Source of the DNA: Camelus ferus
Taxonomy: Eukaryota
Length of the DNA: 64,000 nucleotides
Reading direction: 5' to 3'
NCBI RefSeq assembly: GCF_009834535.1
Contig: NC_045696.1
Span: 80,230,001 to 80,294,000, forward strand
Shown here: positions 18,611 through 46,981 of the stretch, piece after piece
Position numbering within the stretch: position 1 is the stretch's first letter
How the letters are laid out: each line of letters opens with the position of its first letter
The notes under the pieces: model-generated
What the model saw: only the letters and a program-made list of their open reading frames with translations
Database searches by the model: none
What the model was told of the DNA's origin: nothing
Position numbers and translations under genes: made by a program

Positions 18611-18759
18611 TGATATAGCCTGATGACAAATTGAAATTATAATGCAGTCATCATAGTCATCACCTGAATTGTATACAAAAATGAAGTCAGGTGGCCACTG
18701 GGGACCTAGTCTCAGACACAGCTCTGTGCCACTGGAACTTGAACTTTCTTTGAGCTGTG

Positions 18760-19096
18760 CAGACCAAGGATGCCAACAGGCATATTCAGAACAACACCTG
18801 CCAGCTGCAGCCTTCTAGTCTCAAGGTCTCCCCTTGTAACTATGCAACCGTAAGGATCCTAACCAATCCTTACTTTAAAAGCACACCTTACTTCTTCCTA
18901 ATTATAATTCTTGATAAACAGCTCATAACTGCAGCCTTACAGTTTTTGCCTTAATAAGCCTCCTCCATTTTGTAGTCTGGTGGAATGCAATTCAAGTGCT
19001 TCTTGAATCTAAGTCTCCTGGGCTGCAGTCCTAACAAACCCCAAATACACACCTTTACATTTCAATGAGGTCTCTGTTTCTAAAATTTTGGTTAAT
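18760..19096 (+). mobile_element. ERV1 LTR 3' portion (MER34-like)
   Basis: gcagtcctaacaaaccccaaata...aaattttggttaa; shares a motif with 21050-21376. Confidence 0.55.
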
Positions 19097-22215: not shown

Positions 22216-24045
22216 TCAAGGCAACTCAGGGCCCAAACTGATGCAGCAAACTGCTGCCAGATGAATCTTCTTGAGCAATACAAGGTGTCTGTGTCTTAAT
22301 TACAAATACACTGGAAATTATAGCTTTTATAATAAAATCCTTATATGAGAGAGAAAATTTTTTAAATCTTTACAAATCTTTATAGGACACTCAGTAGCAA
22401 CAGCTTCTGTTTTTGCTTTCTAATTAAAGGCAAACAGAGCTAAATCTCTGTAAAATTAGGTGTGGGAAATAATGAACCTTTTAAAGAAATTCCCTAGATG
22501 GGCAGGTAAGGCAATATGGACTGAGTGATGAAGGTCTGAGACTTTGTTTGAAGACAAAAGGAAGATTTTGATGAGTGTTAAGTAGTGGAGGACCATGATC
22601 TTATTCACAACCTCCTTCGCAGGCCTATGAGAGGGCTCTGAGGGCCCTGAGAGCTGTTTCCCTTGGACTTCACATTCACAAAGAACCTCCAAAGGAAAGT
22701 TTGATGTTATCTCCATATAAACTTAGACATACAAGCCAGCATTTTCTTCTATGTTAAAAGCATTGATTTACTAAAATTATTATTTAAAATATACCATAAT
22801 TTGTGAAACCCTATTTAACCTTTTCTTCATATTTGGGGGAACGTTTGGAGCCTCAAAAGATACAGGGGGCTGGACCTCCCCTGCCTCCTGCAACCCCTCT
22901 AACCTCCTCGACCCCTTCCCTTCTCCCCTGACCTGGCCACAATGGGCCTCTTCTTCATATTTCAGGATCTTATTTTTCTCGTTGACCCCACGATAAGGAT
23001 GCTGACTTCCAGAACAGTTAACATCGCTTTGTTGGTCTTTCCTGCCTTTAACACGTATCATAACCATAATTCTATTTCCAGTCTATAAGAAAGTTGTTAA
23101 CACAACTTTTCTTTGAAAGTCTTACCTTTCTTTGCTGTCTCCCATTTCTTCTCTCTTCCCTGCCTGGCTATGACTTACGCCTTCTAGTTATGTCACTCAT
23201 CTTTCTCATTCACTCCAGGATGTAGAGTTTGTAAGTATGGTTAAAAAGTGTCAGATTCACATAACATCTAAAACTTTTAAGACGGAAAAAAATGCTTCCT
23301 TGGCACTTCACCTGTGTCCCAAAGGAGCTTACGTTTTAAAATCTGACATTTTGACAGAGGCAAAACTAGGATTTGAAAAATACTTTTCTTAAAGGTGGAT
23401 AGTTGGTTCACATACATCTAGAAGTCCAGGGTAGGAAATGATGGTTTAGTGGTGATGAGTGGGGCCTGACTGAACCCAGCAGGGGCTGGGGCTCACCCTA
23501 GACCAGGCATCCCAAACTTTAGGTTCCAAGGGATCAGTGCTTGCTAAAATGCAGATTCCTAAGCCCGCGGCCAGAAACTCTAATTCAGTGGATCTAGAAT
23601 AGTCAGGAAATGCTGAACAAGATATAGGGACCCTATATATAGCTGCATATACTATATAGTATATGTATGGCTCCTAATGGCTGGGAGATCTTGGGCGGGT
23701 CCTGATTCTGAGGGTAATTAACTGTGTGACCTCGGCAGGCAAATTAACTTCCCTGAGCCCCTGTTTCCTAGTTGGTAAAAAAGGGTTAGTAAGCATGAGA
23801 CATAGAACATGATGGAATTAATATTTTGGAAAACATCGATGTTTTACTCCTCTGCCTTCGAGTGTGTTAATTACTCCCTACCTCTCCGGACTGACCCAAG
23901 GGTGTATATCTATGTCTGTATCTGTATCTATAGCTCCAATTTCCTTGGTAGAGGTGGAATAGGGGTAGGAATAGGATGGGAGCAGATGGGGAGATTATAA
24001 TTTGTTCCAGAGAACAAAGGAATTTATATTCAGAATCTGACATTC

Positions 24046-24172
24046 GGTGGGGAGGGTATAGCTCAGTGGTAGAGCACGTACTTAGCATGTAGGACACCCT
24101 GGGTTCAATCCCCAGTACCTCCATCAAAGTAAATAAATAATTAAACCTAATTATCTCCCACCCCCACAAAAA
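24046..24172 (+). mobile_element. tRNA-derived SINE (Vic-1-like)
   Basis: A-box tagctcagtgg, B-box gggttcaatccc, 14-bp TSD agaatct(g/c)acattc at 24032-24045 and 24173-24186. Confidence 0.92.
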
Positions 24173-24199
24173 AGAATCTCACATTCAAAAGAAGATTAT

Positions 24200-24515
24200 G
24201 CAGCAAAACAATAGCTATGAGAGAGTATTTCTCCTTTCCTTTACCCACTCCCCACCTTCTCCCCTCCCCTCACAGTAGCATAAGAAAACTCAAGTATGGA
24301 AGTTTCAAGTCTCCAAAATTCTCTTATGGTTTAGAAAACAGCCCTTCTGCCTGTGGCAGCTGGGCCATGAGGCTTGGAGCTCTATGGCAGACGGAGGCTA
24401 TGTTAGGGAAAATTAAAGTCCCAGCCCCCTGTGGCTGAGGGGATGATAGAAAGGAGAGAGAGCAAGTAGGACTTTGGTGAGTGAAGAGAAGGGGGTGCAT
24501 AAATGCTGGGGGCAG
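24200..24515 (+). promoter_or_regulatory. Remnant of the ancestral TNFSF10 upstream promoter, including kB-like TGGAAGTTTC (24297-24306)
   Basis: Colinear blocks (tggaagtttca, tttagaaaacag, ggccatgaggctt, tatgttagggaaaa, tggctgagg, ggtgagtg, ggggtgcat) match my recollection of the human TRAIL proximal promoter; not aligned. Confidence 0.7.
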
Positions 24516-25069
24516 TGGGGGGGGGTGTCCTGTAACGGGTCCCCTTCAATATCCAACATCCCCAACACAATTTCCCAAAACTGGGGCAACAGATGAAGAC
24601 CAGATTAATTAATTAATGCTGCTCAGGCAGCAACACTTTTCAACAGATTTCTTGGTGACTTTAATGTGCATTAGGCTGAGAACCACTGGATCAAGAATTA
24701 AACAGAATGAACATTTAAGTACCCCCACTCTACTTCTTAACATGAAGCCCTTGGGAGAATAAACGGGTTAATTATAGAAGCTAGTATTTCTCGGCTTACC
24801 TGAGCATTGTGTGGATTCATTTGTCACACCAACATACAAAGGAAAATTCTATAAACTCTAAAGAGCTCTCCTCTGGAAATGTTTGTTGTAGTCCAGAGTA
24901 GAAAAGTTATCTAGGAACCTGGGAAATGAAAATAGATGAAGGTTTTAGCTGAAGTGACGACAGCAGAAGTGAATGTTTGCTCTCTCATAAAGTAGATTTT
25001 TTTCCCTTAAATCAAAGGAGATGAGCCAGTCCAACAAAACCACTTTCTTAAGTAGCTGATTACCCTGGT

Positions 25070-25265
25070 GTTAGAATGAGTGAGGTTAGAATCCTGGACC
25101 TGCCCTTACTAGCTATGTGACTTTGGACATTTTACATAGTTTCTCTAAGCCTCAGTGTTTTAGTGAGCAAAGTGGGCGTTATTACATAGTCTCCCTCCAC
25201 AGGGTTGCTGTGAGGGAAGAAAACCTGCATTACATGCTTGGTGCTTGGGTAGGGCTGTTATGAGC
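25070..25265 (+). mobile_element. MIR
   Basis: aatcctggacctgcccttactagctatgtgactttgg...ctaagcctcagt core. Confidence 0.75.
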
Positions 25266-25549
25266 CCCTTTATTTAAGAATTTTGTTGGAATTCTTAAAA
25301 GCAGAGAGACCTAGGCTCTGCGGTGGACCTACAGCATAAGAACGCCCAGGGGTGTACTTTTAAAAGCCATGCAGGCGGTTTCCCTGCGCAGAAGGATGGT
25401 TCTGGAGCAGTGGCTCTTGGATTTCAGCACGCGTCAGCCTCACTTGGAGGACTTGCTGGGCCTGTCCCCCGAGTTTCTGATGCAGGAGGGCTGGGGTGGG
25501 GGCCCAAGCTCCCAGGGGCCACACTTGGAGAGCTGTTGCTCTAGATAAG

Positions 25550-25915
25550 AGGTCAGCTGTCTAGGCCCTGGGCACAAGTCTGGCCCACTTTGTGTTCTGG
25601 GAAATGCAGGGGGGTTTTGATCTTTAAAAAATTTTTTTTGATTGAAGTATAGTTGATTTACCATGTTGTGTTAATTTCTGGTGTATAGCATAGTGATTCA
25701 TTTATACATACGTATATTTCTTTTCATATTCTTTTTTATGGGAAACACAGTTTTATTGGTACACAGCCACATTCGTTTTCATTTTGCTATAGCTGTCTTT
25801 GTGTTACAAGGGCAGAGCTGAGTCATTGCAACAGAGATCACAGATGAACAGAAGTTTAAATATTTACTATCTAGTCCTTTCCAAAAAAAAACATTTACCA
25901 GCCCCTGTTCCAGAG
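25550..25915. mobile_element. MER58-like hAT element interrupted by a minus-strand L1 3' tail (~25620-25740)
   Basis: agttttattggtacacagccac...gcagagctgagtcattgcaacagaga...tatttactatct; L1 tail ttgaagtatagttgattta. Confidence 0.7.
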
Positions 25916-26237
25916 TAGAAGAGTTCAGGTAATTTGGGGGAAAAATTCACCTTGGAAAAGCCCCAGAGTGAGATTAAATTCATCAACGCTCAATAAAGAG
26001 TAAGGTTCAGTCAGAAGTGAAGTGTTGTGTTTCTTCAAATCTTGCTCTAGTTCTGTTTGTAAATTTACACATTCTTGGAGTGAGTAGAGAGCAGCTGGCT
26101 GAGAAATGTTAATAAAGTTATGTAAAAGATTAATATTGATTATACCATCTATTTCCTTTTCCTTTATGTTCTTGTCTAATATTAGCTTGACTACCTGTTA
26201 GAATGTCAGTAATTTATTTCAGAGGCTTCATCACAGA

Positions 26238-26403
26238 ATAGTGGTTCTCAACCCTCGCACGTAAGTCACCTGAGGGATCTTTTTAACAAAAACCTGATCC
26301 TACCCGTGGAACTTCTAATTTAAAGGATGCGGGGTGGGACCTAGGCACTGATGTTTTTAAAACCGTCCAGATGATTTCAATATGCAGCCAAGATTGAGAA
26401 TCA
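26238..26403. mobile_element. MER5-like hAT element
   Basis: agtggttctcaacc...atgcagccaagattgagaatca terminal inverted repeats. Confidence 0.75.
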
Positions 26404-27373
26404 TAGGCAGAGTGTGATTTTTTTTTTAAATGTATTAGTTAGTTGAAATTATTCCCTAGGTCCTGTTACTCTAACTACAAATCGACACGCACTGGTGGTC
26501 TCTGGCATTCTTATTAGCGGGCTTGACCTCTTCACCTGGAGCTACCACTTTTTATTACCCATGTCACGCCCACAGCATGGGCTCTGCTAACCCACAGACT
26601 GAGGTCAGAGATTGGTCTTCCATCAGGAAAAGTAGTGACATATTAATAGTGAAAGAAATGATGTCTCTTTGTTGGAATGAGTGATATTTAAGGCGTATAA
26701 ATTGGCTAACATATTTCAGAAGCATTCACCTTGCTTCCACAAAGGAAACATAGGAATCTAATGAAGCATCTAAGGCAGGGCGTAGCACTCTTTCTGGAAA
26801 GTTCCAGATGATGAATCTCCTAGGCTTTGTGGGGCAAAAAGCAAATCAAGTTACAGCTGCACCACGGAGGTGTGCAGTGCGCCCAGCAGGAGGAGGGACG
26901 AAGTCGTGAGAGCACTGGGCACAGTCTCTGTCCCAACCACTCAGTCCCACAGTTTCTGCGTGATGCTCGTTCCTTTCATGCAGGAAGAGCCCGAAGCAAT
27001 ACGTAAACAAATGAGCAGAGCTACTTGGGTTTTCATCACTGCCGTGTGTCACAAAAGGATATTCTCCTTTTGATTGCTTTTCAGCCATTAGAAAATACAA
27101 AAGTTAAAAAACAAAAGTAAAAATCACTCTTTTGTGGGTCATACAGAGGGAAGAGCTGGGTCAGATCTGACCTGCAGCCAGCCGTTTGCTATCACTTGTT
27201 CTAGACTCAGTCCTTAGGCACAGCATCCTAGGCCTAAGGATGGTTCTATATTTAGCTCTGAATTAACATTCTGATTGCCCACTGCCAGCTAAAAGGATGA
27301 TAGGATCCAGCCAATGAAATATAGTCACTTCTGTCTTCAACGAACCTTTCACGCGAGGTGACAGTCCATTCGG

Positions 27374-27537
27374 TCAGCTGTTCTCAGCTTCGGCTGTACA
27401 TTGGCACCATCTGGGGAGACTGAAACCTCCCACACCCAGATCAATTATGTCAGAAACTCTGGGGCGGGACCCGGAGATCAGTAGTTTTTAAATCTCCTCG
27501 ATGATTTCAGTGGGTAGACAAGGCTGAGAACCACTGA
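27374..27537. mobile_element. MER5-like hAT element
   Basis: cagctgttctcagc...ggctgagaaccactg terminal inverted repeats. Confidence 0.75.
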
Positions 27538-27744
27538 TCTTGGGAGGAGCAAAGAACTGGGACTTCCTCAAGCTGCAGAACAGGTGATATGGTTGTTTCT
27601 GTCTGCTAATAAATATTTGTTTAGTAACATCTTCATGTGTGGGAGAAACTGGTGTGAGCCTTGCTTTTATTGTAATAGGATGGTGAGATTTCTGGGAGAG
27701 TAGCTAACATGCGTGCACACCTCATGCACAGCAAAATAAGCCAC

Positions 27745-28852
27745 CAAAAAATGAAAAGGCACGCTATGGAATGGAAGAAAATATTTGCAAATCGTATATT
27801 GAATAAGGAATTAATATGCAAAATATATAAAGAACTCATACAACTCAACAGAAAAAAAAATCCGATTAAAAAATGGGCAGAGCAAATAATTAGATATTTT
27901 TCCAGCGAAGACATACAGATGTCAAACAGGTACTTGAAATGATGCTCAACATCAGTAATCATCAGGGAAATGCAAATAAAAAACCACAGTGAGATATCAC
28001 CCCACAGCTGCTAGAATGGCTCTTATCAAAAAGACAAGAGATAACATTTGTTGGTGAGGGTGTGGAGAAAAGGGAACCTTGTGCACTGTTGGTTGGACCT
28101 GTAAAATGGTGCAGCTACTACAGAAAACACCACGGAGTTTCCTCAAAAAGTTAAAAAAAAGAACTACCATATGCTCAGCAATTCTACTTCTGGGTACTTA
28201 CCCAAAGGAAACAAAATCACTATCTCAAAAAGATATCTGTAGCCCATGGTTATTGTAGCATTATTCACAATAGCCAAGACATGGAAATGACAAGTATCCA
28301 CCAGTAGGTAAATGGGATAAAGAAAATGTGGTGTGTATGTATACAATGGAATATTATGCAACCACAAAAAGAAGGAAATCCTGCCATTTGCAGCAGCGTA
28401 GATGGACCTTAAAGGCATTATGCTAAGTGAATGCCTTAAAGGCATGATGCTAAAGTCAGCCAGAGAAAGACAAATACTGTATGATCTCATATGTAGACCT
28501 AAAAAAATTTTTTTAGAAAACCCAAACTCAGATTGGTGGTGGCCAGAGGCCAGGAGTGGGGGAGGAGGGTAGGAAATGGCTGAAAGTGGTCAAAGGAAAC
28601 AAACTTCTAGTTTTAAGGTACATTAGTCCTGGGGGTGTCACGTACAGCTTAGTGATTATAGTTAACAATGCTGTATTGTATATTTGAAAGTTGCTAAGAG
28701 TGTAGATCTTAAAAGTTCTATAACTATGTGTGGTATGGATATTAACTAGACTTATTGTGGGCATCACTTTGCAATGTGTACAAATACTGAATCCTGATGT
28801 TGTACACTTAAAACAAACACCATGTTATGGGTCAATTATATCTCAACTAACA
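27745..28852 (+). mobile_element. 5'-truncated L1 (ORF2 end plus 3'UTR)
   Basis: [26 protein letters not shown]; 3' end gtcaattatatctcaa. Confidence 0.9.
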
Positions 28853-30974
28853 AAGGTAAGCTTGACACTGAGGATGAGGAAACTGGTTTACAGAAAAGGC
28901 TGCACACTTCCAAGGGAGGACCTGGAAACCCAAGTCTGTCTGCTGTGACCACAGGTTTTACCCACCAGGGTCTGCCACGTGCACGTGCTACACCAAGAGC
29001 AGGGACTCAGGGCTGCCCACGCCCTACCTGCTCATCCTCTGAAGCATTGCAAGAGCCCCTGGAAACAAACCTGTGCCAATATTCTTCATTTTACAAGAGC
29101 AGAAACACATCCAGAGACTTAAAGTGACTTTCCTAAAATCACCCAGAGAGTTGATGTTAGAAAGGCCATAAAACTCTATCAGCTGTCTCAAAGCAGAACT
29201 CAGGAAAAGAGGATGGGGCAACTTTTTAAGGCAAAGTAACCTTCTATATCATGATGGTGGTGATGGTGACACATTGTATATGATTACCAAAATTAATCAA
29301 ACTGCTCACTTAGAATTGATGGGTTTTAATGTATGTAAATAATAACCTAAATAAAGAAAATAATGCTAATGTACATATATAATTAAAATTAATGTCACCC
29401 ACTTTCTGTTACGTTTTCCTGACTTTAGCAATTATTGCCATGTACTGGGGGTTTCACATGTCAGGGACGTGCTGAATACTTCACATTTCTTATCTCATTA
29501 ATCCTTGAGTGTTAATGCAGCTTGTCTAGACCACTCAAGTGTATTTCCTTAGTCTTTCTGGGTGACGTTTTCTGGAATTCCACATCTATCACTGCCAATA
29601 CAATCGTACTTAGGGCTAACTAGGATTTAATTCTCGAGTGGATGAGCAGGCTATGGCGTCCACCCTAACTCTTTCTATAGCTAGAAAGGTTACAGCCGTG
29701 TTTACCAATTGCACCCAGGAAGCCAGTCATGAATAATTTATTTCATCCTCCCAACAACCTTTGGGGTAGGTACCATTAACATTCTGACTTCACGGGTGCT
29801 GAAGCTGGAACGGAGCCCTTAGCAAACCAGCCAGACAGACACACTAGGAAGCAGCAGGCAAAGATCTGATCCCAGGCGGCCTGAGCCCCTGCGGTTGTTG
29901 GCTTAATCCTCACACCACCTGGCCTCCCAACCAGGGACACCAGGCAGGCTGCTGAGCTGGTGTGTGGGGGCCAGGGTGTGGCTCTTGCAGAGATGACAAA
30001 AGATGACTTTCCCAATGCAGCAGGCATCTCCAGACTAGTGTGGCCTCAGACACTGGTCAGATCTGTTGTCTGTTCCCAGTGCCAGGCTGCTGGGGTGAGA
30101 TGCGATGTGGGAGCCTAGGAACTGGCAGTCACTGGGCAGACGCCCCCATCCACAGGGCACAAGAGGCCCTGAGCATTGAGGTGGGGGCTATTTGACAGGA
30201 GCCTCATGTAGCCCTTTCGATTTTGAAGAATTTTTCAAGATGTGTTTACCTCTTGGTCCCTGACTTGGCTATAGAATGGAGAGAACCTCCAGGAATCTCA
30301 CTAGTGCTCTTCTGGGCAACTGGGGCAACCTAGCATGTTGTTTCCATCTATTTTTATTTTTCTATAGAGCATCTGCGTCTTCCCTTCCAGTGAACAATTT
30401 GCCGATGACACTTTACCTTTAAACGCAGTGCCAGAGCCTGACTGAAATGCAGACTGATCCCTCTGCAAGAGGACACAAGTTACCACGTCTTAACTCCGTA
30501 TGAAGCTAATTGGGACAAATTAAACGTGTACTGACTACCTCAAGATAACTGGAGATTTCTGCACCCTCTCTAATTACCAGAAACAATACCACAGTGACGT
30601 GCTCTTCTGGAGATTGAGAATGCACAACTGTGGAAGAACCTGCATGTTAATAGTACCATCAGTATAGGAGAGCCACCACATACAAGGATGCCGAGACTTA
30701 GTTAAGTCCCCACTATCTGGCTTAATTCAGAAAGATCAGGAAACATTATCCCTGGTCAAAGAGGCTGAATTAAATTGAGACATTCCTGGATTCACAGAAG
30801 ATATCAACTCTGGATCAAATTAAAATATACTCATCTCATTTGGCATAATGTAAAAAATTAATACAAGACAAACAGAACAAATGACTGATGAGTCTGGGAA
30901 CCATGACTTGTTTTGCCTTGAAGGGAAGTTATGTTGTACCTTTTATTTATCATGTATGTTTATCTTTTGTGGGA

Positions 30975-31280
30975 TTTAATTAAAACATTCAGTTATTCAA
31001 TAAATACTTACTCGAGGACTAGCTGTGCTCCAGGCACTCAGGTACAAGGGGTTCCGCTGCAAACAAAAGAGACAAAAATATGTCTTTATAGAGCCTACAC
31101 TCTAGATGGTGAAGACAAGTAATGAAGGAGTAAATTATATAGAATGCCAGAAAGCTTGAAGTGCTTGGAGGAAAAACAAAGTGTGGGAGCAAGATAGGGA
31201 CGGACAGGGTGGGAAGCAGGAGACTGCGGTTATAAATAGGGGTGCAAAGAGAGAGCCTCATGAAGAGATAAGGAAGAGGT
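30975..31280 (+). mobile_element. L2 fragment
   Basis: attcaataaatacttactcgag...tgtgctccaggcact; orientation convention uncertain. Confidence 0.65.
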
Positions 31281-31657
31281 GGTCCTTAGAGCATCATTTG
31301 TGATAAAGATAAACATTGGCAGCAACCTGATACATGTCTATGGGGGACTGGTTAACTACGTCATGATGTATCTGTACAATAGGACACTGTACAGCAAGGG
31401 AAATGTACTATGGCTACAGAATGAGCCCCCAAGACACAGGCATGGATAAAAACAAGGTGCAGAATGATGTACAGAGTATGTGACCATTTTTGTCTGTCAT
31501 GTACATGAGATAAATATTTTACATATAATACTTAAATGCATGGAATCTCAGCGGAAAGATACATTAAAAACTGTTAATAATGGAGTTGGAGAAAAGGGTA
31601 ATTCATGGACAGGTAAGGGTGAAATACTTCGTATTCCATTTTACTCTGAGTATCTAC

Positions 31658-31913
31658 TGCTGAACGGCCAGGCCCCTCAAGGTGGCTGTCCTCTTGCTCT
31701 CTCCCCCCCCTGCTCGGTCAGTCCCTGCTTCACTCACATGAGAACCCAATCCTCTTAATTATGTGGCTTAATTAGTCCCTGCTAATTGCTGAGCCCCCCT
31801 GACATCAATGCCCCTATAAAAGGTAGGCGCCTCCTCCCCCAGTAGCAGTGAAGATTGCTACCATGTCCAGCCCGTTGTCTGCCATACACAGTGGGGCGCT
31901 GCTCCCCAGGAAC
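31658..31913 (+). mobile_element. 3'-truncated LTR (U3 plus start of R) directly upstream of TNFSF10
   Basis: TG start, CCAAT 31746-31750, TATAAAA 31815-31821, R-like gcagtgaagattgct...cagtggggcgctgctccccagga; no AATAAA/ATTAAA or U5 follows. Confidence 0.7.
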
Positions 31914-32037
31914 CTGTAGTGGAATCCTCCCTTCTCTCTTGCTTGCTGGCTGCTAGTGGTGAGGGGTTCCCAGGCTTGCATAATTCCAATCTCTGTCTCG
32001 CCCGTATGGATTTTTCTCTCCCTGTTTGTCTGCTATA

Positions 32038-32109
32038 GCTTTCAGTTTCACTTTGTTCTTTTCTAGTAGACTGAACTTCGGCTCCCCGCCCCACCCACTT
32101 CTTCCGTCA
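32038..32109 (+). promoter_or_regulatory. Putative proximal promoter module: tandem IRF-E/ISRE, GC box, CACCC box, ETS/half-CRE
   Basis: GCTTTCAGTTTCACTTT 32038-32054 (reverse complement AAAGTGAAACTGAAAGC), CCCCGCCCC 32084-32092, CTTCCGTCA 32101-32109, all within 130 bp of the ATG. Confidence 0.7.
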
Positions 32110-32167
32110 CCTCCAGACATAACCTGCTGCCTGGCTGACTCTGCAGCAGTCAGGCCCTGACGGGACC

Positions 32168-32299
32168 ATGGCCTCGGTGCAGGCTCCGGGGGGCGCCAGT
32201 CCCGGGCAGACCTGCGTGCTGATGCTGATCTTCACCGTGCTCCTGCAGTCCCTCTGTGTGGCCATAACCTACGTGTACTTCACCAACGAGCTGAAGCAG
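32168..32299 (+). CDS. TNFSF10: TRAIL exon 1 CDS (44 aa: cytoplasmic tail and type II TM helix)
   Basis: MASVQAPGGASPGQTCVLMLIFTVLLQSLCVAITYVYFTNELKQ; Kozak accATGg; donor CAG|GTCAGT. Confidence 0.98.
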
Positions 32300-35200
32300 G
32301 TCAGTACCAGGCACGGGGTCCCTGACAGAGGCTTTCAGCAGCCCTCCACTTACTTGCCTCTCTGTCGTCTTCTCTGTGAAGATTTTGCAGAGGAGGAGAC
32401 AGCTCGGTTTCTCTGCCTGGGGACCCTAAATGCATGTCATTACTGAGAACTTTACAGAGGGGCGAGTTGAAGGGACTGTGTGGACCAAGTGCAGTGACAA
32501 AACTGGCCCCACAGTTACCAGCAGATGCAGGCACCAAACTCCTGAGCTAGTTTTTCTTGTTTCCAGCAGTCCATGTCTGTTTTAATATTAGCAACTGCTG
32601 CCGTTCGTTGAGTGTTTTCTGCTTAATGCTTTTTATAGCTCTCAACTCAAATTCTCTGGGGTGAGAGGAGCTGCATCAGGGCAGGACTGTGTCTGCTTTT
32701 GCTTACTGTGAAACCTCTAGGTGCTAGCATGTGGCTCCCACCTAGGAGGTGTTCATTAAACGTTTCTTGAATGAATAACCAACCTTCACAAATGTGGTGG
32801 TACTGCTAGTACACAGGGGTAGGGTAGAGTTGAGGCTTAATCCAAAGCCAGGCTCTAAACCACTTGTAACAATGCTGCTTTGTGTTCCAGATGTGGCTAA
32901 TCTCAGTGGATTTTGAATGCAAAATATTGAAAATAAGCCAACTCAGTTTTTGGCTTTTTGTTTTTATTTTAACTAGTTGTATATTATATAGTAGGGAACT
33001 CTGAGCTGCAAGGAACTCTGACACCCTCATTTTGTAGATGAGGAGACTAGAGACACCTCCAGAGAATGACTTGTCAAGCTCAGGGAGAACTTGGAGGCAG
33101 AGCTGGACCCAGGTCTTCAGCACCTAGGTAATGCTGTTCCCATCACAGCCGGGTGTCCATAGGGTTAACCTGTTTCCACTTTGTGATGAACACAGCTCCC
33201 TGCTGCATTGTGACAAGGCAGCATCCAATCTGTCAGCTGGCCAGAAAGGCTGAGGGTCTTGGACAAATACAAATTGTGCACAAATAGAGTGTTTCTGTAA
33301 AGGAAATGCAGTTTGTATATCCTGTGGAGTATAAACTTGGCTCTCAGTTGGGGATTTTCTTTGGAAATGAATGATGTAGACTTTTGTTCACAAGTAATTA
33401 TGAAAATGATCACTACCATTCGATGACCAGTAGAGTCAGCTTTGTTATAGAGCAATTTTGAAGAGCCCATATATTTGTAAGAAAAAAAAAATCCATGTCA
33501 CTATAATCATGTCTTTAGTTCTGAGTCTGCAGGAGAGACTGGAATGCTGCTGTGTTTACCAATTTGGAGCCATCATGTCCTAAGCTTTGTTAACTTTGCA
33601 GTATAAAGAGACTAAGTCTGTGTCTCCATATACAAGAGGTTCCCCTAATTTGCTCACATTAAAGTTGGCCTCATTTTAAGACTGAATCAACTGGTTTTCT
33701 ACTGATCTGAGTCATGCAATTGTCCATGTATATGATTAAGTTTTTTTAAGTATACTATAGAAATGGAGATTTCAAATAAAGCTTAACATCTCCCTATTTG
33801 CACACATTTTTCCTGATTGCGTGTTTATATGTGTGTACACTACTGTATAGACATGCAGAAGAATTCATTGAAAGTATTAGAGAATTAACAGATATTGAGC
33901 AAATACTATGTTTCAGAAACTTTCAAAGTATTGCCCTATTTCTTCCTCATGACAATTCTATAAATATAGTTATCCCATTTTATAGATGAACAAACTAAGG
34001 CTCGGGGAAGTTAGGGGACTTGTCCAAGATTACAAAGCTGGTAAAATGTAAAGCCCAATTTTGAACGTGCATTAAATAGGTGCTTAATAAGTTGTCACCA
34101 TTGTAACTAGCATTGAGAAGTCTCTTGAAGTTTTGACCCTCTTCATCAGGGACTTTTGCAAAGGAAAATGAATCTGAATCTCTTTGGGTAACTGTGTAGA
34201 GTTTGGAAAAGCATATTCAACACAAACATTAATTTCTTGAGACAGATCACAAGTTCCACTTTGGCTAGTGAAAACTTGCAGAAGAAGAAGAAGAGGTCAA
34301 AGATTGTAGGGAGTGTGGGTTGAGCAGGGCTGAGGGATGTTGGACTGGATCCTCACAATTAAGCCTGTAAACCAGCAAGCATGAACAATAAATATGCATT
34401 CAGTCTCTGAAGTCTGTCTCTCTGAGAAAGTTTATGACAAGGGGACTGCCTATCACTGTGGCATCATAGACAGGGAAGAAAAAGAAAGAAACCCTTATCC
34501 ACCGGTCTCCATAAATGATCCTTTATGCTATTTGTGGTTTGCAGAAAATAATTTGTTAGAGACTAATAATGTCTGGGCAGCAGAGCGTGTCTCTGAGCCA
34601 GCCACATCCACCCTGCCGACCTCAAGCGCTGCCAAGGCCTGGCTGGCCCTGGCCTAGACAACCACCGTATTTGCCATGGCAGCAAAAACACTGAAAATCC
34701 ACTTCTCAGAACCAAGGGCTTCTGGAACAGAAGAGCAGGCACCCAGTGCAATAGCTCGGGGCTGTCCCTCCTTCTAGATGTGTGCAAATAAAAATAGCAC
34801 ACACATCCCCCTGCTCCCACCTCTCAGATGTGGTTAGCAAGAGAAGAGACCCAGCCTGAGCTGTGCTGTAGGACATTCACACTTTGAGGTGGAAAGAAAA
34901 GGGTGAGAGAGACACATCATAGGAATCATCATTAATTATTCTCAGAATAACCACAGCACCCCTCACACATGCGTCAGTCACCTGCATTCGCCAGGGTCTG
35001 CAGAGGAAACTACCAAATGTGAAACCTGTCGGGCAGCTGGGGCCTTCTGTGGTTCAGAAATCAATACAGAAGCATAAAAATGTCTAGGAGGAGACACACC
35101 AGATGTCGACAGTTGTGATCTCTACCTAGGGGCCTTTTCTTCCTTTTTTATTTTTCTATGTTTCATAAATTTTCTACTGTGAACAGTGTAACAGTACCTA

Positions 35201-37792: not shown

Positions 37793-40056
37793 GTAGGTGA
37801 ACCACCGGCTCGCTTCACGAGCAGACACATATAGAAGGCTGGAGGAGAAGCAATATTTAAGATCTTCAAATCTAGACTTCACAGGAGGAAACTGGAGCCC
37901 TGAGCTTTTAAGTGATTTTTCCCCAAATTCACAGAAGTAGGGACAGATGGAACAGCACCCAACAGTGGGTCCTGGTCTAGAGTTTATTCCTCTTCTCCAG
38001 AAGGCTTCTTCTCTAGTCTAAACTTTTCATCATACATTGTGGAAACTGAGGCACAGACAGAGTAATGTGTTCAAGGTCACGTGACAATAAAGGGTGTCTA
38101 ATTTTTTTCTAAGTCAGAAAACAAAAGAAACCAAATAATGATGTTTTCTATTCTTCCCACATTGTTGATCTCTGGAATTAAGTCTGTATTTTTGTATGCA
38201 TATAGAGATGAAGAAAGAGGAAAGGAAGAGGGAAGAAAGAGATACTTTGAGAAATCGAAGGCGATGACATCTCAATTGACAGTTAGTAAATGACAAATTA
38301 CACAATATTATTATCTGCTTGTGAAAGTTGCTAAAATAGGATCTCTAGCAGAAGCTTTATGTTAGCTAGCCGTTTATTTCACTAAATGTGATGACCTAGT
38401 TTTACTTCCAGCAATGTGGCATGTCTAATAGAGTTTCTTCTCTCAGGCTGCTTCTACCTATCTGGAAAGGTCAGTTGAGAACACAGATGCGGAAAAAGCC
38501 TGTAAACTATGATGCACCATCATTGTTTAAAAATTACTGGGGACATTCCCAGGGTAGGGGGAGGATGTGTTTTAAAGAGGTGATTGTAAGTCTATTGTCT
38601 GGTGCTCTGTGTGCCTTTGCATAGAAACAGTGTTTGGGATTAGGCTAAAAAGTCCTCATAGCAAAAGCCCAGAGTCACCCGTGGTACTGCCTCTATGAGA
38701 AATGAACTCAGACTCCCACCTGGGTGTCCTCGAAGCACAGCTGCTCTGCAGCTGCCCTGGAAGTGTGGGTGGGGCGCCGGCTGTCCAGGAGACATGCTGG
38801 AGCAGCTGGGGCTCCTTCGGCCCAAGAGCCGAGGACCAGGAAAGACCCGGGCCGAGGGGAAGGGTCCTGAGGAACGGGACCCCAGAGACCCTAGGGTCAG
38901 AGGGGTGGCAGTCCCACGGGCGGCAGAGGAGAGAAAGTCAGGGCTATGGCAGAAATCCGGAGGCTGGGCGGGGAGTGGGGAGGTAGAAGCAGGGGGTTGG
39001 GGTGGGTGTCACGCGTCTCGTCCTGCCTCCCTCCCATTCCCCCTCCCTCTCACCCTCACATCAGCCACTAACTAGAGAAGAGAGCACTGGGGACACCCAG
39101 GGGTGCGTGAGAGTGTGGAGGGGAGAAGAGTTCCCCACTTTTGTAGGCACCCCGAATTGAACAATTTCCAGCAAACCTCCTGTGCCCATTACGTGTATTC
39201 TCTCCTTTAATCCTCAAACAGCTTTGTGAGGAAGGAATCATTCCTCACTTCTTTTAAAAAATAATAATAATAAATGGAGAAATTAAAGTTCACATCAGTA
39301 AAGTCACTTGAGGGAAGTTTCCCAGGGCTAACAATGAGCAGATTTGAATCCAGGCTATCTGATTTTTCTGTGATCAGCCTTTTATTCTGCCTCCACCCTG
39401 CAGGGGTTTTCCTCTTCCCTTTCCTGCTCCTCCTTCTTCCTGCCTTCTTCCTGTCCAAGACGAGGGGGAGAGAGAGCGCGTGTGCAGAGGCTGCCTCTTG
39501 CTTCCCCTCCCCCTCCCCGCACACCGGTGCCCACTGCACTGCAGGCAGCCGCCCAGCACCCCTGGCCCTGCTATCTGGCGTCAGAGCCAGAGACGGGGAA
39601 GAGCAAAGGCCTCTGGTTTGGGGCAAGAGCAGAGAGGAAGGGAATTTCTGGCAGTTGTGCTGTTACCAAAAGTGCCGGGAAGGTGTGGGCAGGGATGGGC
39701 CAAGCCCCACGGCTGACAGAACTGAGAGGAGGGGGAGTCTAAAGCCACGGTGAGCCACATCAGGGTCTTCTCACATAACAGAAAGCCTCGATTTCACTCT
39801 TTCTTACTGGTTTCCCCCACTGGTTATCACAAAAGAGTGATATGATGTGTTTAGTAAGATATGGGAATTTGAAAATATACTTCTGTGTTAAGAAGGTCTC
39901 AGCCACATTCTCAGAAATGAGAGAGTGACATGGTGCTACCAGGAAACTGCTGGAAGGGCTGTGAGTGTCTGTGGGCGTCCTGGTGGGGGGGTGCTTTACC
40001 CCTTGAGTCTTGGGTCTGTCCAATAATTTAAAGCCCCTGGACTCTATTACACAGCT

Positions 40057-40960
40057 CACTTATACACACACGTGAACGCAGACACACACAGCACACTTAT
40101 ACACACACATGCACACACACACACGCAGTGCACTTACACACACATGCACACACACACACAGTGCACTTACACACACATGCACACACACACTGCACTTACA
40201 CATGCACACACACACTGCACTTACACATGCACACACACATGCGCACACACACACACACTGCACTTACATACACATGCACACACACACAGTGCACTTACAC
40301 ACACATGCACACACACATGCGCACACACACACACTGCACTTACATACACATGCACACACACAGTGCACTTACACACACATGCACACACACATGCGCACAC
40401 ACACACACTGCACTTACATACACATGCACACACACACAGTGCACTTACATACACATGCACACACACACTGCACTTACATACACATGCACACACACACAGT
40501 GCACTTACATACACATGCACACACACACTGCACTTACACACACATGCACACACACACAGTGCACTTACACACACATGCACACACACAGTGCACTTACACA
40601 CACATGCACACACACATGCACACACACTGCACTTACACACACATGTGCACACACACACAGTGCACTTACACATGCACACACACATGCGCGCACACACACA
40701 CAGTGCACTTACATACACATGCACACACACACTGCACTTACACATGCACACACACACTGCACTTACACACACATGCACACACACACAGTGTACTTACATA
40801 CACATGCACACACACACAGTGCACTTACACACACATGCACACACACACTGCACTTACACACACATGTGCACACACACAGTGCACTTACACATGCACACAC
40901 ACATGCGCACACACACACACAGTGCACTTACATACACATGCATGCAGACACATACACAGA
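40057..40960. repeat. CA-rich minisatellite, ~27 units of TGCACTTACA(Y)ACACATGCA(CA)n
   Basis: Direct inspection; unit count by eye. Confidence 0.97.
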
Positions 40961-44908: not shown

Positions 44909-46529
44909 GTAAGAGAAAACAATACATATATGGCTTAAAGAAGGGCTTGTTCCAAATAATTTATTCTTTTAACTTGTATCTGAAGTGTTTGTATGACTGT
45001 CTACAAAATGCTCAGAGGTAACTAGGTCTCAGATTGACTCTTTTCAAAAGCAAGATTATAAGATGAATAGCTCAGTTACTACCCGGGCATAACCGGCCTC
45101 AAGAAAATCCTGAACTGGGAGAACTTTGTCTTAGAGTTTCCCATACACACATTTTGTGCTTCTTTAATTTCTCTCTCTTTCACTTTCACCAAAATTTTCT
45201 CCTCTTCAAGGTTCGAAATGAGTTATCTATTTTCCCCACGAGTCACTAAGCCTGCCTAGTGGCACAAGGCTGAACCATAAAAAGTTGCCAAGATTTGATC
45301 ATTTCGCACTTACAAGAAATGTCAGTTTCAAATAATTCAACCAAACATATTAAGGCTAACTTTTAGCTGTAGAACAGGTGTGCGTATAGTGCAGTAGTTA
45401 GTGCATGGGTCTTTCTAACTACCCACATTGGCATCCCGGTTCCTCCTGACTTAGTTATATGTTCTGAGCAAATTACTCAATCAAATCAAGCTTAGTTTCT
45501 TCATATACAAAGTAGAGATAATCTTTAACTTGTAAAACAGTGAAGATTAATGTGAAATGCTGGTGAATAGTAAGTGCACATTAAGTAGTGCTTTTACTAT
45601 CATGAAATGTTTTGTCCAGGTTTAAAGAAATGTCAGGCATCAGTTAACGGATGAAAAGATTGTTGGGCTTTTCTGTTGGTTGGTTGGTTTCTGTTTGTTT
45701 TTTCCCCTGGGCAGTTGCCTTCATGGTATTCCTGAACTCGTGTTTTATAAATGATTGACATGTTCTGCCTACAAGTGAGATCATTATTCCACTATTACTG
45801 TTTACTGTTAATCGACTAATATGATAGTTGTTTTAAACTCTTGGAAATTAAATTTTGCACCAGTCATGGAGATGAGCCCAAAGTTTAAAGGAATATACTA
45901 TTTTAGTAGGGCCCCTTTTCATTCAAAGTCTTTGGGATTTAAAGATACAGAGATCTGAAAGTCTTGAAATCTGGGCTCTCTTTGCCAAACCTTGTATCCA
46001 GTCTTATTGTGGACTAGAGATGCCTTCTGCTTGGATGTTGCTTTGGCTCTGGGTTGCTGAGAAAGACCAAGGAAAGATCCAAAGAGACTCAAAAGAATAG
46101 CAGGAATTTCTGAGCTCTAGTCTTGAGGAAATAGATATGTCTCTTTTGGTTTCCTTCGACATTGGTGACTTGAGCTCACCAGTACAGGAAAGGAGGCAGG
46201 GCTTCAGGACATAAATTCTGCCCAGGAGTAAAGATTGCCAACTGAGTGAAGCATCCCTGTGATGCCATTCAGAACTGAGTGTGACAAGTGTGGCCAAGTG
46301 GCAGATGAGGTACACAAAGTAAGGGGCTCCCAACGGCTCACAATGACACAGGAGCCTCCAGATTTCTATACAACCAGGATGTAGAATCCTTGTAAGACTG
46401 AAGGAGCAAGAAGTTCTATATTAGATGGAATTCCTTTACAATCCTAACCAAAAAACTGGCTAGACACAGCTGTAGGGAAACTCCTTGCTTTGCTATAAAC
46501 TAACTACTTCTTTCTAAAACTTCATTCAG

Positions 46530-46981
46530 GCTCCAAGAATGAAAAAGCTTTGGGCCAAAAAATAAACTCATGGGAGTCATCAAGAAAAGGACATTCATTC
46601 TTGAATAATCTGCACCTGAGGAATGGAGAGCTGGTTATCCATCAAACAGGGTTTTATTACATCTATTCCCAAACATACTTTCGATTTCAAGAACCTGAAG
46701 AAATTTTGGGAACCGCTGCAACAGAGGAGAACAGAAAGAAAAACAAACAAATGGTACAATATATTTACAAATGCACAAGCTATCCTGACCCTATACTGCT
46801 GATGAAGAGTGCTAGAAATAGCTGTTGGTCTAAAGATTCGGAATATGGGCTCTATTCTATCTATCAAGGTGGAATATTTGAGCTCAAGGAAAATGACCGA
46901 ATTTTTGTGTCTGTAACTAATGAGCAATTGATTGACATGGACCAAGAAGCCAGTTTTTTTGGGGCCTTTTTAATTGGCTAA
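46530..46981 (+). CDS. TNFSF10: TRAIL exon 5 CDS (TNF homology domain; Zn-binding Cys codon 46823-46825)
   Basis: SKNEKALGQKINSWESSRKGHSFL...SARNSCWSKD...EASFFGAFLIG*; ttcag| acceptor. Confidence 0.99.

What the first reader, a model, noticed from the sequence alone, without database searches (positions are those of the whole stretch)
24200..32167. TRAIL promoter appears split: ancestral upstream promoter stranded ~7.6 kb from exon 1, ancestral TATA core not found
Seen: 24200-24515 is a unique block ending at a G-run, and only ~45 bp before the ATG (acctgctgcctggctgac...gaccATG) resemble the usual TRAIL 5'UTR. Recalled from human, unverified: these two blocks are only a few hundred bp apart there, joined by an ISRE and a TATA core (cactgactataaaagaatag) that I did not find in this window. 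The ~7.6 kb between them holds ancient repeats (MIR, MER5, MER58, L2, L1ME) too old to have inserted individually in a recent lineage. Inference: a pre-existing genomic segment was moved or copied in, replaced the core promoter and pushed the kB-containing region to enhancer distance, rewiring a death-ligand gene.
Basis: partly seen in the sequence, partly recalled or inferred. Interest (0 to 1): 0.85.

Follow-up and report, generated by a model that had tools for sequence, protein, structure and literature searches.

The report
TRAIL promoter parts 7.6 kb apart
In this camelid-type genome the DNA that best matches the human TRAIL proximal promoter probably lies about 7.6 kb upstream of the gene's first exon, while an interferon-response element still sits next to that exon; whether the camelid gained this spacing or the human lineage lost it could not be tested here.

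Summary
The window holds TNFSF10 (TRAIL) on the + strand, with its ATG at 32168. The block at 24200-24530 is single copy, and the quoted TATA string is absent.

No outgroup DNA was reachable, so I used published human TRAIL-promoter oligos. Five of them, at their published spacing, fit 24413-24565 (only 6 of 1000 shuffled sets scored as well). They do not fit the 130 bp upstream of the ISRE (917 of 1000). A more distal human oligo has its best window-wide match at 22787-22820.

A real separation of about 7.4-7.6 kb relative to human is therefore likely (about 0.6). The intervening DNA is single copy with old repeats (MIR, MER5-like, L1). It has no donor copy in this genome and no flanking repeats, so "copied in" is unsupported.

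Polarity is untested. I lean towards old DNA retained here and lost on the human side. Junction continuity and the transcription start site are also untested, because the read-laying run was lost. The TATA loss lies downstream of the ISRE and is a separate change. Interest is moderate.

The parts
22478..22545 (+). Possible counterpart of the human promoter EMSA probe at -1573. This is an eye alignment only.
   Evidence: The probe is printed in PMC5083748 and the window text is. Two exact 7-mers lie at spacing 15 versus 16, with roughly 55-65% identity allowing gaps.
22787..22820 (+). Best window-wide match of the published human oligo designed on the TRAIL promoter site at -728.
   Evidence: score 15.0, the window maximum on both strands (99.9th percentile 12.0). 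The oligo comes from the supplement of PMC4402533.
23095..23137 (+). Near-best match of the published human oligo for the -165 site. Its placement conflicts with the block below.
   Evidence: score 13.5, against a window maximum of 14.0 (reached at two other places). It lies 1.3 kb from the promoter-like block, whereas in human the site should lie within about 200 nt of it. This is unexplained.
24052..24123 (+). tRNA-Ala-like head of a SINE, just upstream of the single-copy block.
   Evidence: ARAGORN; sequence.
24200..24530 (+).
   Evidence: the only match in the own genome is the query itself.
24413..24565 (+). Stretch that best fits five published human TRAIL proximal-promoter oligos (-169 to -33) at their published spacing.
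   Evidence: joint score 35; 281 of 127600 positions on both strands score as high; 6 of 1000 shuffled-oligo sets reach 35. With four oligos the score is 27, reached by 875 of 127600 positions.
24566..32037 (.). Intervening stretch of about 7.4-7.5 kb. It is single-copy DNA interspersed with old and some younger repeats.
   Evidence: repeat map, no donor copy; no flanking direct repeats of 18 nt or more; no N in the window. The left limit is uncertain by about 30 nt.
27724..28854 (+). L1 3' portion inside the interval.
   Evidence: all 44 non-self matches fall here, at 70-81% identity.
31656..31915 (.). Dispersed element of about 260 bp with consistent ends. It is not an LTR of the interval.
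   Evidence: 38 non-self matches at 71-83%, and none extends past 31915. The region 31900-32310 is single copy.
32038..32055 (-). ISRE-like element (three GAAA-type units) directly upstream of exon 1.
   Evidence: core at 32039-32049, - strand; 10 matches in the window against 2.34 expected.
32084..32098 (-). GC box (Sp1/KLF type) where, by recall, the human gene has its TATA box. On the - strand it holds an 11-mer identical to part of the human -33 primer.
   Evidence: It gives the best - strand match of that primer and the best three-oligo joint score of the window (27, at 32146 on the - strand).
32146..32165 (+). End of the 5' UTR, counterpart of the last 20 nt before the human ATG.
   Evidence: By eye, 17 of 20 ungapped against the reverse cloning primer printed in PMC5083748.
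32168..32299 (+). TNFSF10 exon 1 coding part (44 residues), with a GT donor at 32300.
46520..46981 (+). TNFSF10 last exon (TNF homology domain and stop codon).
   Evidence: TRAIL chains at E 1.3e-79; the next family, RANKL, at 1.6e-22.

Best explanation
This is the TNFSF10 (TRAIL) locus of a camelid-type genome. Exon 1 keeps a short TATA-less core directly upstream: an ISRE-like element 113-130 bp before the ATG and a GC box 70-84 bp before it.

The DNA homologous to the human proximal promoter lies about 7.6 kb upstream, at roughly 24.41-24.57 kb. This is the Sp1/NFAT-responsive stretch at -169 to -33. More distal human promoter sequence continues upstream of it in the same order and strand.

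Relative to human there is therefore a real length difference of about 7.4-7.5 kb between the promoter block and the ISRE. The intervening DNA is ordinary old single-copy intergenic DNA with MIR, MER5-like and L1 pieces, plus later repeat insertions.

I think it is most likely DNA that was already there and that the lineage leading to human lost by deletion. I think a block moved into the camelid promoter is less likely.

Inferred, not shown: TRAIL is transcribed here from the ISRE/GC-box core near 32.1 kb under interferon control. The upstream block acts at a distance or as an alternative start.
For: SHOWN
- Gene identity and exon 1.
- ISRE core at 32039-32049, GC box, no TATA string.
- In human, the oligo-covered stretch lies -169 to -33 from a start site 97 bp before the ATG. 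I read passages of PMC3469471 and of PMC3095616.
- Five published human oligos at published spacing score 35 at 24491. Only 281 of 127600 positions score as high, and 6 of 1000 shuffled sets reach it.
- The same oligos score 23 at 31930-31955, below the window median of 24; 917 of 1000 shuffled sets reach that.
- The -728 oligo has its window-wide best match at 22787-22820 on the + strand.
- The best order-only chain of seven oligos in the window spans 22778-24915 on the + strand.
- No second copy exists of the unique parts of the interval. There are no flanking direct repeats and no N in the window.
- 15 runs on record as or guessed to be DNA, RNA or unknown, from six studies (P1-P6) and two organisms, hold at least half of the sampled words of 23600-33500; 14 of them hold 93-95%.

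INFERRED
- Deletion on the human side is favoured only by base rates. Large deletions are far commoner than insertions of non-repeat DNA.
Against: - The oligo evidence is weak for each item:
  - Roughly 35 other loci in the window score as high as the block, many of them G-rich like it.
  - Higher joint scores occur on the - strand at 31851 (37) and 32133 (30).
  - The order-only chain wins by one point (70 against 69 and 68.5).
  - The placement window of one oligo was chosen after seeing the data.
- The -165 oligo matches best 1.3 kb away from the block, which does not fit the human layout.
- A control with intragenic primers showed that true counterparts rank only among the top few hits.
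- No outgroup sequence was compared, so homology, polarity and age are all unproven.
- Junction continuity was not checked with reads, because the read-laying run was lost.
Confidence: 0.4

Rival explanations
1. No split. The likeness of 24.4-24.57 kb to the human proximal promoter is chance, helped by shared G-richness. The 7.5 kb is ordinary upstream DNA colinear with human upstream DNA. The stretch just upstream of the ISRE has simply diverged beyond what 20-mers can detect, and the TATA was replaced locally by a GC box.
For: - About 35 loci in the window score as high as the block, and two - strand sites near exon 1 score higher.
- The order-only chain is not distinct from the next best.
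- Single-oligo local scores at the block are unremarkable. For example, 1175 and 1025 positions score as high for two of the oligos.
- Short oligos have low power, as the intragenic control shows.
Against: - The shuffled-oligo control gives 6 of 1000 at the block and 917 of 1000 at the proximal site.
- The -728 oligo's window-wide best hit lies in the predicted upstream region, on the predicted strand.
- Eye alignment of the -1573 probe also falls upstream, at 22478-22545.
- The 122 bp between the 260-bp element and the ISRE show no likeness to the human oligos.
Confidence: 0.3
2. In the camelid (or a wider laurasiatherian) lineage, a pre-existing genomic segment of about 7.4 kb was inserted or transposed between the promoter block and the ISRE, pushing the old promoter to enhancer distance.
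For: - The same evidence for a real separation as in the best explanation.
- The interval contains repeats too old to have inserted after the human-camelid split (MIR and MER5-like pieces) and more than 3 kb of unique DNA. It is therefore not a pile of recent insertions.
- A MER5-like copy is truncated near the left junction (by eye).
Against: - No donor or second copy exists in this genome.
- There is no target-site duplication, no flanking repeat, no poly-A and no LTR pair.
- Insertion of non-repeat DNA is much rarer than deletion, and old repeats in the interval are just what retained ancestral DNA would show.
- The TATA loss is not at the junction.
Confidence: 0.2
3. Assembly artefact. The 7.4-kb stretch is real DNA of this species but is wrongly placed between the promoter block and exon 1.
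For: Junction continuity was never checked. The left junction lies next to a G9 homopolymer run.
Against: - There is no N in the 64-kb window.
- The stretch occurs only once in the assembly.
- 14 runs hold 93-95% of the sampled words of the whole 9.9-kb stretch, including one from a second organism. This does not test the junctions themselves.
Confidence: 0.05

Closest known systems
Human TNFSF10/TRAIL promoter as mapped by Wang et al. 2000 and Gong & Almasan 2000. I saw it only through passages of the review PMC3469471 and of PMC3095616.
   Same: - Same gene.
- Interferon-response element close to the start site.
- GC-rich Sp1-type sites.
- The 5' UTR end matches 17 of 20 by eye with the human cloning primer.
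   Different: - In human, the Sp1/NFAT-responsive stretch at -165 to -35 lies within 270 bp of the ATG. Here its best match lies 7.6 kb upstream.
- The TATA-like string recalled for human is absent, and a GC box lies in its place.
TATA-less, ISRE-plus-GC-box promoters of interferon-stimulated genes. This is a general class named from my own knowledge; no call tested it.
   Same: An ISRE within about 130 bp of the ATG, followed by a GC box, with no TATA.
   Different: The start site and interferon inducibility were not measured here. Membership is by motif only.
Insertional translocation or segmental insertion of non-repeat DNA.
   Same: A multi-kb block of mixed unique and old-repeat DNA lies between two parts that are adjacent in another species.
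   Different: There is no donor copy, no junction signature and no polarity information. A deletion in the other lineage gives the same picture.

Membership tests
TNFSF10 (TRAIL) gene | The C-terminal TNF homology domain is closest to TRAIL among TNF ligands. | tested here: met
   TRAIL chains at E 1.3e-79 to 1.7e-72; the next family (RANKL) at 1.6e-22.
TNFSF10 (TRAIL) gene | Exon 1 encodes a short cytoplasmic tail and a hydrophobic anchor, and ends at a GT donor. | tested here: met
   (44 residues; GT at 32300). The hydrophobic stretch was read by eye.
Human-type contiguous TRAIL proximal promoter | An interferon-response element within about 130 bp upstream of the ATG. | tested here: met
   core at 32039-32049. 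That the human element sits at a like distance is recalled, not tested.
Human-type contiguous TRAIL proximal promoter | A TATA-like core between the ISRE and the 5' UTR. | tested here: not met
   0 matches at up to 3 mismatches. No TATA-like string is visible in 32056-32167 (by eye).
Human-type contiguous TRAIL proximal promoter | The Sp1/NFAT-responsive stretch (-169 to -33) lies within about 270 bp of the ATG. | tested here: not met
   the joint oligo score at 31930-31955 is at or below the window median, and 917 of 1000 shuffles reach it. Power is low.
Human-type contiguous TRAIL proximal promoter | The same stretch is present somewhere in the locus in the gene's orientation. | tested here: inconclusive
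   best prior-specified fit at 24413-24565 (281 of 127600 positions; 6 of 1000 shuffles). About 35 other loci score as high.
Duplicative segmental insertion | A donor or second copy of the inserted unique DNA elsewhere in the genome. | tested here: not met
   only repeat-family matches at 69-94%. The unique parts match themselves only.
Retrotransposed or LTR-bounded insertion | Flanking target-site duplication, a poly-A tail or paired LTRs at the ends of the interval. | tested here: not met
   none of the 5 direct families and 5 inverted pairs joins the two junctions. No poly-A is visible at either end (by eye).
Lineage-specific (camelid) event | The interval is absent between the promoter block and exon 1 in outgroups. 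| not testable with these tools
   No mammalian outgroup DNA was reachable.

The most novel reading that the evidence does not exclude
In camelids the old TRAIL promoter was cut off from the gene. TRAIL may now run from a bare ISRE/GC-box core, responding to interferon only and uncoupled from Sp1/NFAT-type activation control. Alternatively, it may still start at the displaced promoter near 24.57 kb and splice out the 7.4 kb as a new 5'-UTR intron. Polypyrimidine-AG acceptors (AG at 32037-32038 and 32065-32066) overlap the ISRE. Either form would be a lineage-specific rewiring of a death ligand in animals that tolerate MERS coronavirus with mild disease.
Probability: 0.12. Interest if true: 0.7.

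Novelty: new variant of a known kind. Interest (0 to 1): 0.42.

Why it matters
TRAIL is an interferon-induced death ligand whose dose shapes tissue damage in viral lung disease and tumour surveillance. In human, the 130 bp just upstream of the start site are needed for basal activity and for NFAT- and interferon-gamma-dependent induction (passages of PMC3469471 and PMC3095616).

If that stretch really lies 7.6 kb away in camelids, there are two readings:
- Camelid TRAIL may be regulated differently, which is testable with reporters and CAGE.
- The compact human promoter may itself be a product of a deletion that fused an upstream element to the ISRE core.

Either would be a clear natural experiment on promoter architecture. 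If the likeness is chance, the locus is ordinary apart from a TATA-to-GC-box change.

Tried and rejected
OUTGROUP DNA (none obtained)
- A scan of metagenome contigs with a degenerate exon-1 pattern gave 11 loci. None was related to the window by blastn.
- A 5'-UTR pattern gave 0 hits in genome contigs and 0 in viral contigs.
- A protein search with the antisense ORF across the promoter (31956-32231) gave 7 word candidates and none at E up to 10. I had hoped other mammals' spurious ORFs would be in the collection.
- Earlier findings of the scan: nothing near the place, in relatives or by sequence, and a word search returned unrelated prokaryote notes.

READS
- The look-up of sequencing runs listed 24 runs.
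- No junction, start-site or splice evidence exists, and the run shares are unlocalised.

SINGLE OLIGOS AND ORDER-ONLY CHAINS
- These were not significant.
- The -3000 primer pair gave tied candidates at 18730-18971 and 30544-30745, which settles nothing.
- The -608 oligo's best hit (51021) is plainly chance.

IDEAS DROPPED
- The stretch 31656-32037 as an LTR that donated a TATA. The repeat family ends at 31915, 31900-32310 is single copy, and there is no partner LTR.
- The interval as a provirus: there are no paired ends.
- A kB site in the block: there is none.

LITERATURE
- PMC1168760 (the IRF3/TRAIL paper) is not held.
- Two wide literature searches were uninformative, and one returned nothing.
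- The sgRNA tables of PMC5094855 are not among its held supplements; only the start-site table is.

FORMAL TEST OF FURTHER OLIGOS
Only eye comparisons remain.
Full report
WHAT THE WINDOW IS

The window lies at 80.23-80.29 Mb of contig C1 of a 2.09-Gb assembly. I did not name the organism with a tool.

TNFSF10 (TRAIL) runs on the + strand. The ATG is at 32168, and exon 1 coding runs to 32299 with a GT at 32300. An exon-2-like frame lies near 37.65-37.79 kb. The last exon ends at 46981, and its translation hits TRAIL chains at E 1.3e-79 against 1.6e-22 for the next family. The window has no N.

CHECKING THE OBSERVATION

The block at 24200-24530 is single copy in the whole genome. It follows a tRNA-Ala-like SINE head and ends in G5 and G9 runs. 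The TATA-core string that the finding quotes is absent at up to 3 mismatches.

Two statements are wrong:
- An ISRE-like element is present at 32038-32055. Its core matches the ISRE pattern at 32039-32049, 119-129 bp before the ATG, among 10 window matches against 2.34 expected. A GC box follows at 32084-32098.
- The NF-kB consensus has no match between 19690 and 38539 (8 matches in the window, 6.74 expected). The 'kB-containing' label is therefore unsupported.

WHAT THE INTERVAL IS MADE OF

Searches of the window's own genome give this map:
- MIR core at 25084-25175 and MER5-like at 25454-25508.
- A young L1 3' fragment at 25615-25742, with 43 copies at 80-94%.
- A dispersed element at 25745-25918, and MER5-like at 27430-27533.
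- An L1 3' part at 27724-28854, where all 44 non-self hits fall.
- Low-copy matches at 28904-29355 (75%), and at 30428-31192 plus 31289-31648 (71% and 69% to one place on C3).
- An element of about 260 bp with consistent ends at 31656-31915, with 38 hits.
- Single copy: 29356-30430, 31900-32310, and most of 24516-25083.

These searches score only the best 40 candidates, so the counts are lower bounds.

No direct or inverted repeat pairs the two junctions.

IS THE BLOCK THE HUMAN PROXIMAL PROMOTER?

No mammalian outgroup DNA could be reached. I therefore used published human oligos.

Their place in human is documented. The promoter starts 97 bp before the ATG (passages of PMC3469471). EMSA probes cover -169 to -33 within a 136-bp ChIP amplicon (passages of PMC3095616). 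A 61-bp amplicon surrounds a site at -47 (passages of PMC3613827). Further qPCR primers and site-matched oligos are in supplement file 3 of PMC4402533. Twelve CRISPRa guides in supplement file 1 of PMC6303322 tile the same stretch (read, not typed).

Singly, and in order-only chains, the oligos are not significant. Scored jointly at their published spacing:
- Five oligos give 35 at 24491. Only 281 of 127600 positions on both strands score as high.
- 6 of 1000 composition-matched shuffled sets reach 35 there.
- Four oligos give 27, reached by 875 of 127600 positions.
- At the place expected for an ordinary contiguous promoter (31930-31955), the score is 23. This is below the median of 24, and 917 of 1000 shuffles reach it.

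The oligo for the human -728 site has its best match of the whole window at 22787-22820 on the + strand. This is upstream of the block, as colinearity predicts.

By eye only, the 49-nt probe at -1573 printed in PMC5083748 resembles 22478-22545. Also by eye, the reverse cloning primer that ends just before the human ATG is 17 of 20 with 32146-32165.

Weaknesses:
- About 35 loci score as high as the block, many of them G-rich.
- Two - strand sites near exon 1 score higher (37 at 31851, inside the 260-bp element; 30 at 32133, over the GC box).
- One oligo's placement window was set after looking at the data.
- The -165 oligo matches best at 23095-23137, 1.3 kb from the block.
- An intragenic control showed that true counterparts rank only among the top few hits.

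I put the chance that 22.5-24.57 kb is the counterpart of the human promoter at about 0.6-0.65.

WHAT FOLLOWS IF IT IS

Human and this genome then differ by one stretch of about 7.4-7.5 kb between the promoter block and the ISRE. From recall of the human mRNA 5' end, which no tool tested, the likeness on the left may run on to about 24595, and on the right it resumes at the ISRE.

The missing TATA lies downstream of the ISRE (32056-32117). It is therefore a separate local change, with a GC box in its place. On the - strand that box carries an 11-mer identical to part of the human -33 primer. I treat this as a curiosity.

However, it argues only that the stretch is old DNA. Old DNA kept here and deleted on the human side gives the same picture. 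It needs no donor, and it is the commoner kind of event. Copying-in is unsupported, moving-in is untestable here, and polarity needs outgroups.

HOW IT LIKELY WORKS (INFERRED)

A TATA-less ISRE/GC-box core within 130 bp of the ATG drives interferon-induced transcription. The upstream block acts at a distance or as an alternative start.

There is one unlocalised hint of transcription upstream of exon 1. Three RNA runs from two studies hold 33-37% of the sampled words of 23600-33500, while exon 1 plus the intron part is about 15% of that stretch.

PRIOR DESCRIPTION

One search for TNFSF10 with camelid terms and 'promoter' found 2105 papers holding at least 3 of the 5 terms. None of the 15 listed holds TNFSF10. 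I found no description of this arrangement. The search is narrow, and subscription journals are not covered.

VERDICT

My odds:
- Real separation with retained old DNA: 0.4.
- Camelid-side insertion: 0.2.
- Chance likeness, no split: 0.3.
- Misassembly: 0.05.

Noticed in passing
window 40049-40958: An imperfect array of about 0.9 kb made of CA-rich units of 29-31 nt (60 nt as a double unit), with about 28 copies at 77-81% matches, in a TNFSF10 intron. It gives a spurious 331-residue His/Thr-rich frame and a GC skew of -0.55.
   Followed up: partly
window 34478, 43293, 43877, 45177 (and 12069, 15450 upstream): The ISRE core pattern occurs 10 times in the window against 2.34 expected, and none of 100 shuffles reached 10. 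Four copies lie in TNFSF10 introns and two lie 17-20 kb upstream of the ATG. They could be further interferon-responsive sites or repeat-borne motifs.
   Followed up: no
window 23600-33500: Three RNA-seq runs from two studies hold 33-37% of the sampled words of this stretch. That is more than exon 1 plus the intron part (about 15%) can explain.
   Followed up: no
window 32088-32098, - strand: The GC box next to exon 1 carries an 11-mer identical to part of the published human primer that ends at -33, but on the opposite strand and downstream of the ISRE. It gives the best three-oligo joint score of the whole window (27 at 32146 on the - strand).
   Followed up: partly
window 24052-24123: A tRNA-Ala-like SINE head followed by an A-rich tail lies directly upstream of the single-copy block. 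It is a lineage-specific insertion into the region that may correspond to the human promoter.
   Followed up: partly
window 23095-23137: The published oligo for the human -165 promoter site has a near-best match here (score 13.5 against a window maximum of 14.0). This is 1.3 kb upstream of the block that fits the neighbouring human oligos. Either one match is chance, or this genome has a further stretch of about 1.2 kb (with MIR and MER5-like pieces, by eye) that human lacks.
   Followed up: partly
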